Below, piece after piece: positions 1 through 27,347 of a stretch of 46,667 bases of DNA. Source of the DNA: Escherichia phage C1. A program made the position numbers and the translations under genes. The notes beneath the pieces were generated by a model. It did not search any database. It was not told where the DNA came from and saw only the letters and a list, made by a program, of their open reading frames with translations. The first letter of the stretch is position 1, and every line of letters begins with the position of its first letter. The stretch lies in the sequence record NC_054651.1; one strand, written 5' to 3'.

Positions 1-181
1 TGTCATTCCACAGATGGGCGGCGTTATGCAGATGCTTGGTGGTAAACGTGATGACTCCGGTCAGCAACAAACACGCCAGCAATCAGGTCAACAACCGCAA
101 CAACAGCAGCCACCAAAACAACAAAGCCCACAAGGATGCAATGAGCCTCCGATGGACTTTGATGATTCAATACCCTTCTAA
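1..181 (+). CDS. ssb: single-stranded DNA-binding protein, C-terminal part (5' part is at 46366..46667; gene spans the window junction)
   Basis: No start codon in window; frame 2 translates to a Q/P-rich linker ending NEPPMDFDDSIPF*, the conserved acidic SSB tail; in frame with the ORF at window end. Confidence 0.85.
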   Translation, partial: VIPQMGGVMQMLGGKRDDSGQQQTRQQSGQQPQQQQPPKQQSPQGCNEPPMDFDDSIPF

Positions 182-194
182 ATGGTGATTTAGT

Positions 195-223
195 TTGACG
201 CGATACCCCTTTCTGAATATAAT
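195..223 (+). promoter_or_regulatory. sigma70-type promoter (TTGACG-17 bp-TATAAT) upstream of HNH endonuclease gene
   Basis: Consensus-like -35 and -10 hexamers with 17 bp spacer about 25 nt upstream of ATG at 250. Confidence 0.55.
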
Positions 224-249
224 TCACAAAAGCAGAAAGGGGTTAATAT

Positions 250-843
250 ATGAAATTATGTAAAAGATGCGGAATTGAAAAGGACGAAGGTTCTTTCTAT
301 AAAGGCGCAGGTATGAAGTGCAAGGATTGCACAAAGAGTGATGTTAGAGAAAATCTAAAGAATGTTGGTGATGCTTATGATAAAACAGAAAAAGGTGTAA
401 TCAGGGTTATATACAAGACGCAGAAAAGACACAATAAACTCAGAGGACATGGTGAAATTCCTTACTCAAAAGCCGAATTGTCATCATGGCTATACACCAA
501 TGGATTCAAGAGGCTTTATGATGAGTGGGTTTCCTCTGGTTATCTTAGTGACTTAAAGCCAAGCGTTGACAGGATTAATGATTTTATTGGTTATAGTTTT
601 GACAACATAAGGCTTGGAACATGGAGGATGAATAGAAATCATCAAAAGCAAGATATATTGTCTGGAGTAAACAAGAGTGGAAGAAGATGCAAGAGAGTCA
701 TAAAACTTGATTCAGATTACAATCTTATTTGTGAATATCCATCATATAATTCAGCGGCGCGCGACTGTGGTTATTCAATTGAGTATCAAATAAAAAATGG
801 CGTTAAATGCAGGAATGGATTTTTTTGGGCTTATAAATCTTAG
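250..843 (+). CDS. HNH homing endonuclease (HNH_3-like)
   Basis: 197 aa ORF; N-terminal Cys cluster (CKRCG...CKDC) and C-terminal block KPSVDRINDFIGYSFDNIRL typical of HNH_3 domain; free-standing between ssb and a terminator. Confidence 0.6.
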   Translation: MKLCKRCGIEKDEGSFYKGAGMKCKDCTKSDVRENLKNVGDAYDKTEKGVIRVIYKTQKRHNKLRGHGEIPYSKAELSSWLYTNGFKRLYDEWVSSGYLSDLKPSVDRINDFIGYSFDNIRLGTWRMNRNHQKQDILSGVNKSGRRCKRVIKLDSDYNLICEYPSYNSAARDCGYSIEYQIKNGVKCRNGFFWAYKS

Positions 844-872
844 TGCATATCTCACTTTCTGATGATAATAAT

Positions 873-897
873 AACCCCGCCGAAGCGGGGTTTATTA
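873..897 (+). terminator. rho-independent terminator
   Basis: GC hairpin CCCCGC-cgaa-GCGGGG followed by TTTATT, directly after stop of 250..843. Confidence 0.7.
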
Positions 898-1155
898 ATA
901 GCAATCAGACATCAGCTCCAGCCGCGTTTTTCCATGTGCTGCTAACCAACGGCCACTTTTAATGGTAATGCCTCCAGCGCACCCCTACGGGGGCACGCGA
1001 GGCTGATTGAGTGGAGGGATGCCCTCGCTTGAGTACATCACTTTTCAGTCTACACAGAAGCACGAACAATACTTGTGTATTGACCAGCACACGAAACTCA
1101 CTCTACTAGCCACTTCAGACCAGATAATTATTGTTTTATTGGCGGGGGATTTCAT

Positions 1156-3186
1156 TTAGTTTTGGAGTTCAACCGTTGATTTATGTACAATACCCCGGGT
1201 CGCATCCCCACCTTGTAAGATGAACTTCATAAGTGTGGCGGATGGAACCTCTAATAATCCAAGTCCCTGTGAAAGACCTCCGCCACCAACTGCATAAGCT
1301 TCACATTTATGTAAGTTAAACCCAGTAGGCGCAGCAACCCATACCACTCCATTAGCATCAAGGGCTGATACTGTCCATGTGCTTTGTTCGTAAAATCCAT
1401 TACCTACGTAGTACCATCCAGGACCAGGCTTAAGGGCATCAGCCAGGCCATTGTTACGACAGTAGTCAATAACTCTTTTGTTTGCGCGGCTTACTTTAAG
1501 ATAGTTAGTACATGCTACATTCCCACCGTTGAAAAACAATCTATTGCCTGACAATGCTGAATACAGATATTTATCTACAGACTCAAGATTGTTAAATGAA
1601 TTGGCAGATGCTGACATATTCATGCCATTTACAGTAATGTCATTACCTGTATTATTGAATGAAAAAATTGCTCTTGTTGCTGCTGGTATTGTAACTTCAG
1701 TTTGAGAATATTTGTTGGCAATTGTGTATCTTGCTGTATGTGCCCCGCTTGAGTTCATGTATGTAATGCTATAAACAAATCCAAAATTTGCAGTTATGTT
1801 TTTGTTGTTTTGGTCAGCAAGGAACAGTAACCCATTATAGAATTCAACCCCTAGTTCAAATGTGAGGTACTCACAATTGCTTCCCAGCTGTACTGCAATT
1901 GGTGTTTCGTTTGCACTATCCCAGATAGCTCCCTCGGTTGAGTTAAGAACTTCTACATAACCACGGAAAAAACCATACTGACATTTGTCAAGATAAATTG
2001 GGAATGGACATCCTCCTATCTCAACTCGCAGATCAAATGAAGTAGTTGGACCTGTAACGCCAACAGGAACTGTGTGTTCTGGTGTTGGTGATACAGGGTC
2101 AAAATAGATCCCTTTATGACAACTCAAAACACGTATAGTACCGACCATCCCCCAACATCCGTACCCATATACACCGAACTCTCCGCCCCACACGCTTACA
2201 TCGACTTTTGCTTTGATCGCATCATTCATATGAAGGCAAATTGACAGGTCACCTTTAACAGCAGACATCCATGCAACATTTGACCACTCAAGAGAAAAAC
2301 CCTGGAATACAACACCATTTACAAACCCATTTGTTGATGCTGTATCAGATGCTTTTTTTACTTTCACAATGCAGATATCGCCAATATTTGTTGATGATGT
2401 TACTGATGGTTTATCTTTAATTATCATTGTCCCATGAAAATGATCAGACTGCGGGCCTGCAATAAAGCAACTATTAATATCCAGCATCAATGTGTCGAGA
2501 GATGAGAATCTGTATTTCTTCAACGTTGGGCATCTTACTGAGCACTTTAAACTACGTGCTACTGTGTCTGCTTTTTGCATTGCGGCCCAGTCAATTGACT
2601 GAGATAAACTTGTTGCAAGCGGATACACCAATTGCGCATCAGTTAGAGTGGTGTATTTTTCTGATAATAGATGAAGAGTTCCATCTCCTATTGCTCCAAA
2701 CTGCTCTGGTGTTACATAATATAATGCCTGAGATAAATTACCAGATTGCTGAACGCCTACTCTAGTTGGGTCTACTAATGGTTCTCCGGGTGAATTTAAT
2801 TCACCCCTTAAAACTGCATCACCGACACTAACCCATGCTCCTAATTTAACACCGCCAGTACTATCTGGAGTTGAACCAGCAGGCACTATTTTAGGTAATT
2901 CACCATCCCATCGGTAATATTCTCCAGTAGCTTCATAACGCAGAGTCTGATTGGGAAGCGTCAGTGCCGCACCATCTTCGAAGCTATCCATTGTGATGTA
3001 GCCATAATTACGGATAGCCTCTTCTGCTGTGTACTGAAATCCAGCAATTGTCCAGCGGCGTACGCCGAAGCGATCAGTATAGTAATGCGCATCAGATGTC
3101 ACTACCTCATCAATCTTCCCGGCGTTAAACTTGAGGTCGCGCGGGTCTTCTGACGGAATTGGTTTATTAGTTGGTGTGGTAGCCAT
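1156..3186 (-). CDS. tailspike / tail fiber with pectate-lyase-like beta-helix domain (putative depolymerase)
   Basis: 676 aa, last gene of tail module; motif YYVTPEQFGAIGDG resembles the N-terminal signature of pectate-lyase superfamily tailspikes. Confidence 0.65.
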   Translation of the reverse strand: MATTPTNKPIPSEDPRDLKFNAGKIDEVVTSDAHYYTDRFGVRRWTIAGFQYTAEEAIRNYGYITMDSFEDGAALTLPNQTLRYEATGEYYRWDGELPKIVPAGSTPDSTGGVKLGAWVSVGDAVLRGELNSPGEPLVDPTRVGVQQSGNLSQALYYVTPEQFGAIGDGTLHLLSEKYTTLTDAQLVYPLATSLSQSIDWAAMQKADTVARSLKCSVRCPTLKKYRFSSLDTLMLDINSCFIAGPQSDHFHGTMIIKDKPSVTSSTNIGDICIVKVKKASDTASTNGFVNGVVFQGFSLEWSNVAWMSAVKGDLSICLHMNDAIKAKVDVSVWGGEFGVYGYGCWGMVGTIRVLSCHKGIYFDPVSPTPEHTVPVGVTGPTTSFDLRVEIGGCPFPIYLDKCQYGFFRGYVEVLNSTEGAIWDSANETPIAVQLGSNCEYLTFELGVEFYNGLLFLADQNNKNITANFGFVYSITYMNSSGAHTARYTIANKYSQTEVTIPAATRAIFSFNNTGNDITVNGMNMSASANSFNNLESVDKYLYSALSGNRLFFNGGNVACTNYLKVSRANKRVIDYCRNNGLADALKPGPGWYYVGNGFYEQSTWTVSALDANGVVWVAAPTGFNLHKCEAYAVGGGGLSQGLGLLEVPSATLMKFILQGGDATRGIVHKSTVELQN

Positions 3187-3225
3187 TATAATAAATGCTC
3201 CTTTGTGAATTTGATGTATATTGTA

Positions 3226-7026
<3,801 letters not shown>

Positions 7027-7027
<1 letters not shown>

Positions 7028-9939
7028 TATTCTGTTGCTCTCCTGTTGGTATTGTAATTTCTAGAAATGGCCTGCCCTATCGGGCCATTTTCCGAAATGT
7101 CACTAACAATAGTCTCAATTGTCACGCTGCCGTCACCATTATCTCTTGCGGTTGATGAGGTTGTTGCCCCGCTGCTGGTATTGATGACGTTATTATAAAT
7201 AACGATACCACTACCACCTCCAGTCAGGTCTTTGTTGCTGATAACGCGACCACTATCCCCCGGGATCATGTACTGATGACCGTTTGATGCCTGGAATATC
7301 TCAGGGAGGTTATTCTCGCCCACCCTGTACATCGAGCCTTCCTGCGCTGGTCCGCCGTTTTTCAGCGCGCCAGCAATGGATAGTGTTTTTGCAAGACCAA
7401 CTGTTGCTGACATCCCGGCCATTGCTGGTGCTGAGTTTGCCCCAGCCGTTGCCAGTGAGGTCATGGCTGCTGCTGGAGCCATTGCTGCTGATATTGCCGC
7501 TGCCTGAGCTATTGTCGCTGCAGAAGCCGCGCTCATTCCTGCAGCACCCATGATAGCTGATTTGGCCCAGTCTATACCCATTTGCACAAACGCATTGATA
7601 ACACTGGACAGGATGTTTGAGCCAATTGATCGCAGAGCATCTGATACAGACATTGAGCCAGTAAGGATGCCAGTAAGCGCATTTCCAGCGGTCTGCCCGA
7701 AAGCATCAAACGCCGCCGCAGCCGCTTGCGTTGCTGCGCTTTGCTGACTCCACTCCTGCCACATTGCTTCAAGTCGCTGTTGGCGGTATTGCGCTTCAAT
7801 TGCTGCGCGAGTCTGCTCAATCTCCGTGATTTTTTGTGGATATGCTGCGGCGTATGCTTCAAGGTCAGCCATATCCTTCTGATAGGATGTTTCTACAGCA
7901 AACATTGGTGAGGTTTGTGATTTTAGTGCGCTGTATCCTTTTACGGCATCTATTCTTTTCTTTTCCGCCGCAACCTGTTCCTTCAGTGCATTCTTCTGGT
8001 CCCAAATCTTCGCCGCGTACTCACCAGCCAGTTTTATTTGTTCCTGAGTTGCCGCCTTGCCAAGAGATTGCTGAGCGTTGAGAATGGCTTGCTCGCGTGA
8101 TAGTTCTTTTGTGGATTCTGCCTGACCAGCAAGTAGAGCCTCCTGCCGCAGTTTATTTAATTTCTGCTGGATGGTTTCCTGTTGATTTAGTTCAGTCTTA
8201 AGCTGGTTATTTGCATTGCGCTCATCCCTTGCCGCTTGTGCATTTTTCTCCTGCTGACGATATGTCTCAAGTCTGACATTGTAATATTCACGAAACGCAG
8301 CGGTATTCTGCTTTAATCCCTGAGCTTCAGCATCACGCCACGCCTGAGCTTTTAGCTTTTCATCGCCAGTTTGTTTCTCAATAAATAATGTCTGGCGAGC
8401 GGTTTGTAGCGCCTTATCCTGACTTGATGTTAAGGAGTCTGTCATCTCCTTGAGAGCTTTCAGGCGCATTGTTGCGTCAGTTGTTGTGGTAGCAATTTCC
8501 AGCAAGCGAGCTGCATATTCTCTTGCCTTTTGCGCGCCAGATGACTGTCCCTCGCCTACCTTTTGCAGAGTAACGATTAACTCATTAAGTTTTTCATTGC
8601 TCGGATTTTTGGCGATTTCAGAGAGTTGCTTGGCAAATTCAAAAGCCTGCTGGTCGGTCAAATCAAAGCGACTTGCCAGAGCGCCTACTGTGGCAATCAT
8701 GTTATTCATCGTGGATTGCCCGGCAAGTCCGGCTGATGCTGCCTGCTTCATCGCTTCACCGAAATCATTGGTGGTGATATTCAGCATGGACAGGTAATCA
8801 TTAAACGATTTAACGCTGACATTAGCTCCTGACAATGAAGCAAAAAGACGATCGCCAAAGGTTACGAACTCACTGGATGCTTTTGATACTTCCTTAGATA
8901 CCTTTGAGAGCGCCGCTGAAAGTTCAAGTTGCGCTTGCTGGCGCATCAGTGTTGCAACGGTTGTGTTTGCCCTTGCTAATGCCGCAAACTTATCTGAGTA
9001 TGCTGCCACGCCATTGCTTGAAACGCTGATAACCTGATCCATTGCAGAAATGGCATCTTTCATGGCATCAATGGCATTTTTGCCGTTACTCAGCGAGGCC
9101 ATCAGTGAACCAGCAATAACTGTCGCAATTGTCAATACTGCGCCAGCTACCGGACTGAATACAGATGCAAGTTGTGAACCTTGCTGACTGAATGCAACAA
9201 GCGCAGACTGACCACTTTGAACCTGAACAATAAAGTCCTGAACCTGATAGCCACCCTGTTGCAGCGCGTTCCTGAAACCGTTTGTGGATTTGCCAGCCGA
9301 CTCTGTACCGTTTTTCATGTCGTACAGGCGACCAGTCAGCTCAGCAATCTTGGCCTTTTGTGCGTCAGTTGCGCCATCTCCAGCTCTGAGTTGTGCTGCA
9401 AGAATGGCTGCGCTTCGTGCGCCGTTTTCCATTTGCTCTTCAAGAATTGCAACCTGATTTCCGAGACTTTCAATTAATCTTTCTGTGCCAGATATGCTTG
9501 CGCCAGCGCCGCCAGTAGATGTACCAAGCTCACGAATAGCAGTCGTAACAGCATTAATTGAGGTTTCCAGTCTGCCAGTAGAAACAGCGGCTTGTTGCTG
9601 TTGCTGCTGCATCATGGCGAGTTGCTGATTTAGAGCGTCGATAACCTGATTCGCTGACTCAGCAGACTGCGATGTCGATTTGACAGCACTTGCCGCGCCA
9701 TCACTGGAGGCCGCCATCTTGCTAAGTGTGGCATCAATGCTTTTAACCACGGAGACAAGGGAAGAGAATGCCTTTCCGGTTGAATCAGCCTGACCATCAA
9801 GTTTATTTAAATTCTTCGTGGAGCCACTTACAGCTGAGTCAAATTTTGATAACTCTGATTCCGCTGAGCTTGCTCCTGCTTTAAGCCCGGATACATCCAT
9901 CCCGACTTCATAGACAATTCCGCCGACTTCTTCAGCCAT
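7027..9939 (-). CDS. tail tape measure protein
   Basis: 970 aa, Ala/Gln/Ser-rich with long predicted coiled-coil stretches and poly-Q run, hydrophobic C-terminal region; located between chaperone-like gene and minor tail genes. Confidence 0.85.
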
Positions 9940-26655: not shown

Positions 26656-26886
26656 TCACTTACCATCGCGCAGTCTCCGGTTTTCCTTCCTCATGCCGTG
26701 CATCTTGCCGAGGATGCCAACCAGCATGATGGAGTAGCTCACACCTTTAACCACGATTGGCGGTAGCGCTGCTTTCAGGTCATCAGGCATCATTACCCAT
26801 ACATGCATCATTGCATCAGGCCATAGCTGCAACAGCGAGCAGAATGAAATCCACGCGCCGAGCAGCCAGTTGCTTAGCTTTTTCAT
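26656..26886 (-). CDS. holin candidate (two-TM small membrane protein)
   Basis: 76 aa, two hydrophobic helices, highly basic C-terminus; directly 3' of endolysin gene. Confidence 0.5.
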   Translation of the reverse strand: MKKLSNWLLGAWISFCSLLQLWPDAMMHVWVMMPDDLKAALPPIVVKGVSYSIMLVGILGKMHGMRKENRRLRDGK

Positions 26887-27347
26887 GCCACAGCTCCACC
26901 AGCCTCTTTGTATACCTGAATCAGCTTATCCAGTTTCTGCTCGTGCTGACCATAACCCGCGCCCGGCAATGAAGCCCAGCGGGAGCGGCATTTGTGGATG
27001 GCATCAGCAATGCGTCCAGCCTCAATATCAGCTGTGGCCTTGCATTCGCGGATTAGTTGCATTGCGATAGCGTCCTGTGACGCGGGGGAGAAGTCCGGTA
27101 AACGCAGTTGCTTTTTGTACGCATCATAAAATTTAGCCAACACCTGATAGCGCCCGGCGGCGGTGGATTTGATGCCCAGCTTAGGCAGGCTAATCAGCTT
27201 GCGCGGGTGATCGGAATAGTCAGTAAACAGTGAGCCGCCAACGATCACATCATAACCATGATTATTGGTTTTCTGCCGCCCGTTATCAGTGCCTTCGCTG
27301 TACGCCAGCATATCCAGAAAAGCCTTCATGTTTTTGCTAATAGCCAT
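26883..27347 (-). CDS. endolysin, lambda R-like lytic transglycosylase
   Basis: Track ORF 26883..27428; from MAISKNMKAFLDMLAYSEGTDNGRQKTNNHGYDVIVGGSLFTDYSDHPRK the sequence matches remembered phage lambda R almost residue for residue. Confidence 0.9.
   Translation of the reverse strand: MAISKNMKAFLDMLAYSEGTDNGRQKTNNHGYDVIVGGSLFTDYSDHPRKLISLPKLGIKSTAAGRYQVLAKFYDAYKKQLRLPDFSPASQDAIAMQLIRECKATADIEAGRIADAIHKCRSRWASLPGAGYGQHEQKLDKLIQVYKEAGGAVA

What the first reader, a model, noticed from the sequence alone, without database searches (positions are those of the whole stretch)
1156..3186. Tailspike with pectate-lyase-type domain: probable polysaccharide depolymerase
The 676 aa distal tail protein carries the YYVTPEQFGAIGDG signature at the start of a beta-helix pectate-lyase-like domain, typical of capsule- or O-antigen-degrading tailspikes. 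This would define the receptor and host range.
Basis: partly seen in the sequence, partly recalled or inferred. Interest (0 to 1): 0.4.

Follow-up and report, generated by a model that had tools for sequence, protein, structure and literature searches.

The report
Ordinary beta-helix tailspike of coliphage S192
This gene encodes the sugar-recognising tailspike of a small E. coli phage: a standard phage part that very probably binds and cuts the host's O-antigen and so sets host range, though this version's enzyme module is uncharacterised and was recently swapped in from a prophage.

Summary
Window 1156..3186 (minus strand) is a 676-aa ORF, and YYVTPEQFGAIGDG sits at residues 156-169. The window is the genome of Escherichia phage S192, where the gene is annotated "tail fibers protein".

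The protein is a modular tailspike:
- Residues 1-155 are an anchor homologous to Shigella phage Sf11 gp13, whose anchor docks on the distal tail protein. It includes a PF18668 domain.
- Residues 155-215 are a conserved cap.
- Residues ~481-676 are a beta-sandwich tail with no specific fold match.

The motif is not a catalytic or pectate-lyase signature. It opens a ~55-aa cap shared by about 800 tailspike clusters, and it marks where modules are exchanged. Pfam's pectate-lyase-like model does not match, even at E≤10.

In six of six prophage contexts examined, O-antigen-modification genes lie directly downstream of the spike. S192 keeps a 34-nt relic of one such acyltransferase, so an O-antigen receptor is likely.

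Whether the enzyme is a hydrolase or a lyase, and which glycan it cuts, remain unknown.

Verdict: an ordinary feature, a new member of a known kind, of low interest.

The parts
1156..3186 (-). Tailspike gene (676 aa plus stop); GenBank URP83754.1, annotated 'tail fibers protein', of Escherichia phage S192
   Evidence: ORF list; 99.9% tblastn match to ON239132.1; record annotation
3198..3204 (-). Shine-Dalgarno-like AAAGGAG, 11 nt upstream of the ATG
   Evidence: Read directly from the sequence
3007..3186 (-). Residues 1-60: N-terminal anchor. By homology it forms the helices that bundle with the adaptor helix of the distal tail protein. R16 and K19, the salt-bridge residues in Sf11, are conserved
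   Evidence: phmmer vs PDB 9occ_G (Sf11 gp13), E 1.1e-66 over residues 1-155; Sf11 cryo-EM description. Low pLDDT in the monomer model, as expected for a segment that folds only in the assembled trimer
2818..3000 (-). Residues 63-123: Tail_spike_N (TSP1/Gp66 N-terminal) domain
   Evidence: Pfam PF18668, E 6.6e-20, 71.4 bits against a cut-off of 25; pLDDT 82-90
2725..2817 (-). Residues 124-154: flexible hinge or linker between anchor and enzymatic body, and the upstream edge of the exchangeable module
   Evidence: pLDDT <50 for residues 124-153; Sf11 paper places a hinge near residue 162 of gp13
2542..2724 (-). Residues 155-215: conserved cap of the beta-helix, including YYVTPEQFGAIGDG (nt 2680..2721). 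It is a canonical FGAxGDG...DWAAxQAA cap interrupted by a ~26-aa insertion, and it is the module junction
1747..2541 (-). Residues 216-480: right-handed parallel beta-helix body, the presumed glycan-binding and cleaving groove. Family-conserved residues: H319, E336, Y342, W345, C356-H357-K358-G359, D363, E370, Y404, E412, D423, E427-T428, E448
1159..1746 (-). Residues 481-676: last irregular turns plus a C-terminal beta-sandwich region of unassigned subtype (trimer stabilisation and/or glycan binding is inferred only)
1104..1137 (+). 34-nt relic of a prophage Acyl_transf_3 (O-antigen acetyltransferase-type) gene. It corresponds to the conserved TIHFRPDNYG region near that gene's 5' end. About 825 bp of the gene are deleted in S192
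   Evidence: blastn 31/34, E 2.7e-7, collinear with the Enterobacter prophage cassette L002 12881..12914; same relic in S192-like phage L012; intact gene follows the 95%-identical E. coli-type copy
873..892 (-). Terminator-like hairpin (8-bp stem, 6 GC pairs, then an AT-rich tail), ~265 nt downstream of the spike; probable end of the tail operon
   Evidence: Consensus scan only; two hits found against a shuffle mean of 1.7, so this is weak evidence
6554..7027 (-). Distal tail protein (157 aa), the docking partner of the spike. The adaptor helix keeps E129, E136, E147 and D152 (E152 in Sf11)
   Evidence: phmmer vs 9occ_C (Sf11 gp17), E 1.5e-102 over residues 1-155; Sf11 paper
3226..5712 (-). 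J-like central tail protein / baseplate hub 2 (828 aa), directly upstream. The spike occupies the canonical receptor-binding-protein locus after it
   Evidence: phrog_469 tail protein, E 9e-255; same length as Sf11 gp14; locus rule stated in the BASEL paper

Best explanation
The gene encodes the single tailspike, the receptor-binding protein, of the virulent siphovirus S192. By homology with Shigella phage Sf11, trimers attach through their N-terminal helices to the adaptor helix of each distal-tail-protein subunit, giving six trimers around the tail tip. A flexible hinge joins this anchor to an exchangeable module (residues 155-676) made of a conserved cap, a right-handed parallel beta-helix and a beta-sandwich end. 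The helix groove binds the host's surface polysaccharide, most likely the O-antigen of LPS, and cleaves it endolytically. This lets the virion work its way down to the outer membrane, and the module's specificity sets host range. My best guess for the chemistry is acid/base hydrolysis by conserved carboxylates on neighbouring rungs (candidates E412/E427/E448 or E336/E370). A lyase mechanism using H319/H357/K358 is the main alternative. The module was acquired by recombination at the cap junction from a temperate-phage 'tailspike + O-antigen acetyltransferase' cassette, and the acetyltransferase was then deleted. Shown here: gene, domain order, fold, homologies, cassette linkage, relic. Inferred: trimer and copy number, O-antigen as substrate, catalysis and catalytic residues, direction of transfer.
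For: Identity and locus. The gene follows the J-like tail gene, as in Kagunavirus/Skatevirus-type siphoviruses whose tailspikes process O-antigen.
Anchor: PF18668. Residues 1-155 match Sf11 gp13 at E 1e-66 with R16 and K19 kept. The distal tail protein matches Sf11 gp17 residues 1-155 at E 1.5e-102 with the acidic adaptor helix kept. The Sf11 cryo-EM work shows 6 trimers and O-antigen dependence.
Conserved mid-helix residues across homologs 24-40% identical to S192 suggest shared catalytic machinery.
Modularity: the same C-terminal module sits behind PF18668, P22-type PF09008 and T7-type PF03906 N-termini. DNA homology starts at codon ~155 and ends at or just after the stop codon in three independent backbones.
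O-antigen: all six prophage contexts have convergent Acyl_transf_3 or GtrA/GtrB/GtrC-like genes immediately downstream. BTP1 is a precedent in which such a gene protects the O-antigen receptor from the prophage's own tailspike.
Transfer: 95.3% nt identity to an E. coli-type prophage copy and the 34-nt acetyltransferase relic.
Against: No enzymatic or genetic data exist for S192, and no paper on it was found. No sequence model of a glycosidase or lyase matches the helix body. Profile alignment to the nearest solved relative, LKA1 gp49, covers only the cap, so no catalytic residues can be transferred. Only a monomer was modelled, so trimer and inter-subunit sites are untested. Seroconversion genes sit next to tailspike genes in many temperate phages as general genome architecture, so the linkage is supportive rather than decisive. 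Acyl_transf_3 enzymes can also modify capsules, ECA or other glycans. Near-identical modules occur in prophages of E. coli, Enterobacter, Morganella, Proteus and Jinshanibacter, which is unusual for a serotype-specific O-antigen.
Confidence: 0.72

Rival explanations
1. Same tailspike architecture, but the enzyme is a polysaccharide lyase (beta-elimination at a uronic-acid residue), as the 'pectate lyase' label implies, rather than a hydrolase.
Confidence: 0.3
2. The spike targets a capsule (K antigen) or another exopolysaccharide (colanic acid, ECA, O-antigen capsule) rather than LPS O-antigen.
For: Some Kagunavirus relatives (K1G, K1H) use the K1 capsule. Many top structural hits are capsule depolymerases of Acinetobacter and Klebsiella phages. 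Copies 84-95% identical occur in prophages of five genera, which would fit a glycan shared across Enterobacterales. Acyl_transf_3 enzymes are not restricted to O-antigen.
Against: Two of the six prophage contexts have GtrA/GtrB/GtrC-like cassettes, which act on undecaprenyl-linked O-antigen. The closest characterised phages of this type (Sf11, Bas77-81) depend on O-antigen. There is no similarity to endosialidases or to the Phi92 colanidase beyond the cap.
Confidence: 0.18
3. The beta-helix is a non-catalytic adhesin that only binds the glycan.
Against: Strong conservation of charged and aromatic residues in mid-helix across homologs 24-40% identical to S192, which presumably have different substrates, is what a retained active site predicts. 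All characterised spikes at this locus in related siphoviruses are enzymatic. Prophage self-protection by O-antigen modification fits a cleaving spike.
Confidence: 0.07

Closest known systems
Shigella siphophage Sf11 tailspike gp13 (PDB 9occ) and tailspikes of Skatevirus / Deseoctovirus / Kagunavirus-type small siphoviruses (e.g. Bas77-81, phage Skate, DS8)
   Same: The N-terminal ~130-155 aa are 75-92% identical. The gene sits at the same locus after the J-like tail gene. The docking partner is the same (distal tail protein ~96% identical over 155 aa). The expected role is the same: an O-antigen-dependent, host-range-determining enzymatic spike.
   Different: From residue ~155 onward the receptor-binding module is unrelated to theirs. 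Sf11's is Sf6-like, and those of Bas77-81 target O16. S192's distal tail protein is 157 aa, against 457 aa in Sf11.
Pseudomonas phage LKA1 gp49 (PDB 4ru4) and phi297 tailspike (4ru5), O-specific polysaccharide lyases
   Different: The helix bodies do not align at the profile level. The LKA1 H494/D497/H499 site and its beta-barrel insertion domain have no identified counterpart. The N-terminal anchor (podovirus type) and the host are different.
CBA120 tailspikes TSP1-TSP4 (PDB 4oj5, 5w6p, 6nw9, 5w6h), O-antigen hydrolases
   Different: Only 11-16% identity in the helix. They belong to a branched four-spike complex on a myovirus. Their catalytic carboxylates cannot be mapped onto S192.
P22 / Sf6 / BTP1-type temperate-phage 'tailspike + O-antigen conversion' cassettes (gtrABC, oac, gtrC-BTP1)
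   Same: Prophage members of the S192 module family have the same arrangement, a tailspike followed by convergent acyltransferase or gtr genes. BTP1 shows that such a gene protects the receptor from the cognate spike.
   Different: S192 is a virulent phage that retains only a 34-nt relic of the acetyltransferase. The helix module is not alignable by sequence to the P22 or Sf6 endorhamnosidases.
Pectate lyases, polygalacturonases and the Pfam PF12708 'Pect-lyase_RHGA_epim' family
   Different: No HMM match even at E<=10. The cap carries a ~26-aa insertion. There is no evidence for pectate as a substrate or for a Ca2+-dependent lyase site.

Membership tests
Phage tailspike with TSP1/Gp66-type N-terminal domain (Pfam PF18668) | HMM match above the gathering score | tested here: met
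   71.4 bits against a cut-off of 25, E 6.6e-20, residues 63-123
Sf11 gp13-type siphovirus tailspike (docks on the distal tail protein) | Homologous N-terminal anchor with the contact residues, and a cognate adaptor helix on the distal tail protein | tested here: met
   Residues 1-155 vs 9occ_G, E 1.1e-66, R16 and K19 present. The distal tail protein (6554..7027) vs 9occ_C, E 1.5e-102, with E129/E136/E147 kept and D152 in place of E152. Contacts are described
Sf11 gp13-type siphovirus tailspike (docks on the distal tail protein) | Homotrimer, six trimers per virion | not testable with these tools
   Only monomer prediction is available; this is inferred from Sf11 cryo-EM
Right-handed parallel beta-helix (pectin-lyase-like fold) depolymerase tailspikes | Beta-helix fold of the central domain | tested here: met
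Right-handed parallel beta-helix (pectin-lyase-like fold) depolymerase tailspikes | Demonstrated cleavage of host polysaccharide | not testable with these tools
   Needs a halo assay, an LPS ladder assay and product analysis
Pfam PF12708 (Pect-lyase_RHGA_epim, formerly Pectate_lyase_3) and PF13229 (Beta_helix) | HMM match at or above the gathering score | tested here: not met
   No hit for residues 150-676 even at E<=10, none for the full protein at E<=1, and none precomputed for ~100 homologs. One protein that shares only the cap has a sub-threshold PF12708 hit (17.4 bits against 27)
True pectate lyases (PL1/PL3/PL9) | Ca2+-binding acidic cluster plus a catalytic Arg/Lys acting on polygalacturonate | not tested
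LKA1 gp49-type O-antigen lyase | Conserved His-x-x-Asp-x-His active site (H494/D497/H499) and a beta-barrel insertion domain | tested here: not met
   hhalign aligns only cap residues 105-220. No equivalent motif was found among the conserved columns
AlgE/AlgG-type mannuronan C5-epimerase/lyase | YG(F/I)DPH(D/E) catalytic motif alignable in the helix (the motif definition is from my own knowledge; YGFDPHE is visible in the 2pyg sequence) | tested here: not met
   hhalign probability 2%, cap only. S192 has IYFDPV, with Val365 variable and P364 present in only 43 of 77 sequences
Endosialidase ('endo-N-acetylneuraminidase' or '63D sialidase', as some relatives are annotated) | GH58 beta-propeller plus a C-terminal Peptidase_S74 chaperone domain | tested here: not met

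The most novel reading that the evidence does not exclude
The S192 receptor-binding module belongs to an uncharacterised beta-helix family of about 18-20 clusters at 50% identity, with no Pfam or NCBIfam model. Its conserved set (H319, E336, W345, C356-H357-K358, E412, E427-T428, E448) matches no known tailspike active site. Near-identical copies (84-95%) circulate in phages and prophages of E. coli, Enterobacter, Morganella, Proteus and Jinshanibacter, always next to an acyltransferase where that could be checked. The most novel reading not excluded is that the family has a new catalytic arrangement and targets a glycan epitope shared across these genera, either a shared O-unit or a common antigen such as ECA whose acetylation state gates infection. 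That would give cross-genus specificity.
Probability: 0.1. Interest if true: 0.5.

Novelty: new member of a known kind. Interest (0 to 1): 0.2.

Why it matters
The tailspike is the host-range determinant of a candidate therapeutic or biocontrol phage isolated from piglets. Knowing its module boundary (codon ~155) and its anchor tells engineers where a different specificity module can be swapped in. The link to a prophage acetyltransferase predicts a simple resistance route: lysogens carrying that gene should be immune. The receptor-binding module itself is uncharacterised, so defining its substrate would add one more glycan-specific depolymerase to the toolbox. None of this changes current understanding of how such phages work.

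Tried and rejected
- Pfam, NCBIfam and PHROGs on the C-terminal body gave no enzymatic family. PHROG hits cover only residues 1-211.
- The PDB sequence search, with a single sequence and with the family profile, matched only the anchor and the cap.
- Transferring LKA1 gp49's active site by hhalign failed, because only the cap aligns.
- The lead that S192's 'IYFDPV' equals the alginate epimerase/lyase 'YGFDPH' motif was rejected: hhalign probability 2%, and the His position is Val and variable.
- blastn of the module against 5,426 complete E. coli genomes found no real copy. E. coli copies exist only in draft assemblies.
- No paper on phage S192 was found.
- tblastn of the acyltransferase against 50,697 phage records found only two weak hits, in unannotated human faecal phage contigs.
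- The host serogroup and glycan could not be inferred.
- I had no access to model coordinates, so the spatial clustering of conserved residues could not be checked.

Full report
WHAT IS THERE. The window is the complete 46,667-bp genome of Escherichia phage S192 (ON239132.1; host E. coli 192, from piglet intestinal mucosa in China; genus Deseoctovirus). It is presented reverse-complemented and rotated. The ORF named in the finding exists exactly as stated: window 1156..3186, minus strand, 676 aa, ATG start. An AAAGGAG ribosome-binding site lies 11 nt upstream, and the gene starts 39 nt after the stop of the preceding 828-aa tail gene. GenBank annotates it as 'tail fibers protein'. YYVTPEQFGAIGDG is residues 156-169.

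GENOMIC SETTING. The gene closes a standard siphovirus tail-tip module, all on the minus strand:
- tape measure protein, 7027..9939;
- distal tail protein, 6554..7027;
- hub protein, 6084..6554;
- an NlpC/P60 protein, within 5642..6121;
- a J-like central tail protein, 3226..5712 (phrog_469, E 9e-255);
- the spike.
The BASEL-collection paper describes this as the canonical receptor-binding-protein locus of Kagunavirus/Skatevirus-type small siphoviruses. In those phages a single enzymatic tailspike processes O-antigen and dictates a narrow host range.

ANCHOR. Residues 63-123 are a PF18668 Tail_spike_N domain (E 6.6e-20). Residues 1-155 match the tailspike gp13 of Shigella siphophage Sf11 (PDB 9occ, E 1e-66). 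The Sf11 cryo-EM study shows the three N-terminal helices of each spike trimer bundling with one adaptor helix of the distal tail protein gp17. That gives six trimers per virion, and Sf11 infection depends on O-antigen. The tailspike contact residues R16 and K19 are present in S192. The S192 distal tail protein is ~96% identical to gp17 residues 1-155, and it keeps acidic residues at the four contact positions: E129, E136 and E147 are unchanged, and E152 is D152 in S192. Attachment is therefore inferred with good confidence, but it is inferred.

WHAT THE MOTIF REALLY IS. The motif opens a ~55-aa cap with the family consensus VTPEQFGAIGDG-x-HPLSERY-x-TLAAAQAVYP...IDWAACQAA. An exhaustive HMMER search of 1.84 billion cluster representatives with residues 140-676 found only 18 proteins at E<1e-30, and these match along much or all of the body. 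About 780 more match only this cap. hhalign of the family against LKA1 gp49 aligns the cap at 44% identity (probability 99.4%) and nothing else. Against AlgE4 (sequence verified), the FGAxGDG and D-x-AA-x-QAA halves pair up around a ~26-residue insertion in S192, but that alignment is not significant.

The insertion probably explains why Pfam's PF12708 (pectate-lyase-like) and PF13229 models do not hit, even at E<=10. So the motif is a genuine hallmark of the start of a tailspike beta-helix, but it is a structural cap. It says nothing about lyase chemistry or pectate.

It is also the recombination junction. DNA homology between S192 and three unrelated backbones begins at window 2723/2724 (codon 155) and ends at or just after the stop codon:
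- a Proteus mirabilis podovirus-type prophage, 83.7% identity;
- a Kagunavirus-like contig, 71.4%;
- an E. coli-type prophage contig, 95.3%.
This agrees with published conserved junction motifs in Kagunavirus and other tailspike genes.

FAMILY AND RECEPTOR. The C-terminal module occurs in ~100 proteins (90%-identity clusters) of Enterobacterales phages and prophages. It sits behind three anchor types: PF18668, P22-type PF09008 and T7-type PF03906. Every one of the six prophage contexts I examined has O-antigen-modification genes convergent with, and immediately downstream of, the spike:
- a 304-aa Acyl_transf_3 gene in Enterobacter ludwigii, in Proteus mirabilis and in the E. coli-type contig;
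- a 384-aa Acyl_transf_3 gene in another E. coli prophage;
- GtrA/GtrB/GtrC-like cassettes in an E. coli and a Yersinia P22-like prophage.
The BTP1 precedent shows that such a gene protects the O-antigen receptor from the prophage's own spike and blocks superinfection.

S192 itself retains a 34-nt relic of the acyltransferase's conserved TIHFRPDNYG region (31/34 identical, E 2.7e-7) at window 1104..1137, right after the spike's stop. About 825 bp, including half of the intergenic terminator hairpin, have been deleted. An S192-like metagenomic phage shares the relic. The simplest history is that a virulent siphovirus captured a temperate-phage 'spike module + acetyltransferase' cassette and then lost the now-useless conversion gene. 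This history, together with the O-antigen dependence of Sf11 and Bas77-81, makes O-antigen the likely receptor (about 0.7-0.75). Capsule or another exopolysaccharide remains possible.

CHEMISTRY. This is unresolved. Residues conserved in homologs 24-40% identical to S192 cluster in mid-helix: H319, E336, Y342, W345, C356-H357-K358-G359, D363, E370, Y404, E412, D423, E427-T428 and E448. That argues for a retained active site rather than a pure adhesin. The abundance of carboxylates, with pairs spaced 34-36 residues apart (E336/E370, E412/E448), resembles hydrolytic tailspikes. From my own knowledge, the P22, Sf6 and HK620 catalytic pairs are about 33 residues apart. I therefore lean to hydrolase (about 0.5) over lyase (about 0.3). 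This is inference only: I had no coordinates to check spatial clustering, and no template active site could be transferred.

COMPARISON AND NOVELTY. Functionally and architecturally this is a textbook modular tailspike. It passes the membership tests for the PF18668/Sf11-type anchor and for the beta-helix depolymerase fold. It fails those for Pfam PF12708/PF13229, for the LKA1-type and AlgE-type active sites, and for endosialidases. The endosialidase label appears in the annotation of some relatives that share only the anchor. The receptor-binding module is an uncharacterised subtype. Near-identical copies occur in prophages of E. coli, Enterobacter, Morganella, Proteus and Jinshanibacter, which is mildly curious. 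I rate it a new member of a known kind, with interest 0.2.

Noticed in passing
window 1104..1137 (+), just outside the finding's coordinates: A 34-nt relic (31/34 identical, E 2.7e-7) of a prophage Acyl_transf_3 O-antigen acetyltransferase gene lies immediately after the spike's stop codon. The intact gene follows the homologous spike in Enterobacter, Proteus and E. coli-type prophages. The annotated 46-aa 'hypothetical protein' (window 1019..1159 +) overlaps this relic and has no family match, so it may not be a real gene.
   Followed up: yes
window ~180..856, including the ORF at 250..843 (+): The 'endonuclease VII'/HNH-like gene (phrog_1035, E 1e-16) looks like a mobile insertion. An S192-like metagenomic phage (L012) is collinear with window 3300..857 and then jumps directly to window 179..90, so it lacks this segment.
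   Followed up: partly
window 6554..7027 (-): The S192 distal tail protein is 157 aa, whereas its Sf11 homolog gp17 (PDB 9occ_C) is 457 aa. The first 155 residues are nearly identical. S192 lacks the ~300-aa C-terminal appendage described for Sf11.
   Followed up: no
window 5642..6121 (-): An ORF with an NlpC/P60 domain (PF00877, E 6.6e-9; lambda gpK-like tail-tip protein by position) lies in a stretch that the GenBank record leaves unannotated (record 26855-27225). The equivalent 121-aa gene is called in the Enterobacter prophage L002.
   Followed up: partly
homologs P0002-P0007 and P0013; loci L002, L003, L004, L013: The S192-type receptor-binding module (84-95% identical) is found in prophages of E. 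coli (draft genomes only), Enterobacter ludwigii, Morganella morganii, Proteus mirabilis and Jinshanibacter. None of 5,426 complete E. coli genomes carries it. This cross-genus sharing is unusual for a serotype-specific spike.
   Followed up: partly
L003 and L004, 17793..22121 (Proteus mirabilis, ~5.5 kb downstream of the prophage spike): An OLD-like TOPRIM/AAA ATPase gene paired with a UvrD-type helicase gene (a Gabija-like pair by domain content) lies next to the prophage lysis and integrase region. It was not examined.
   Followed up: no
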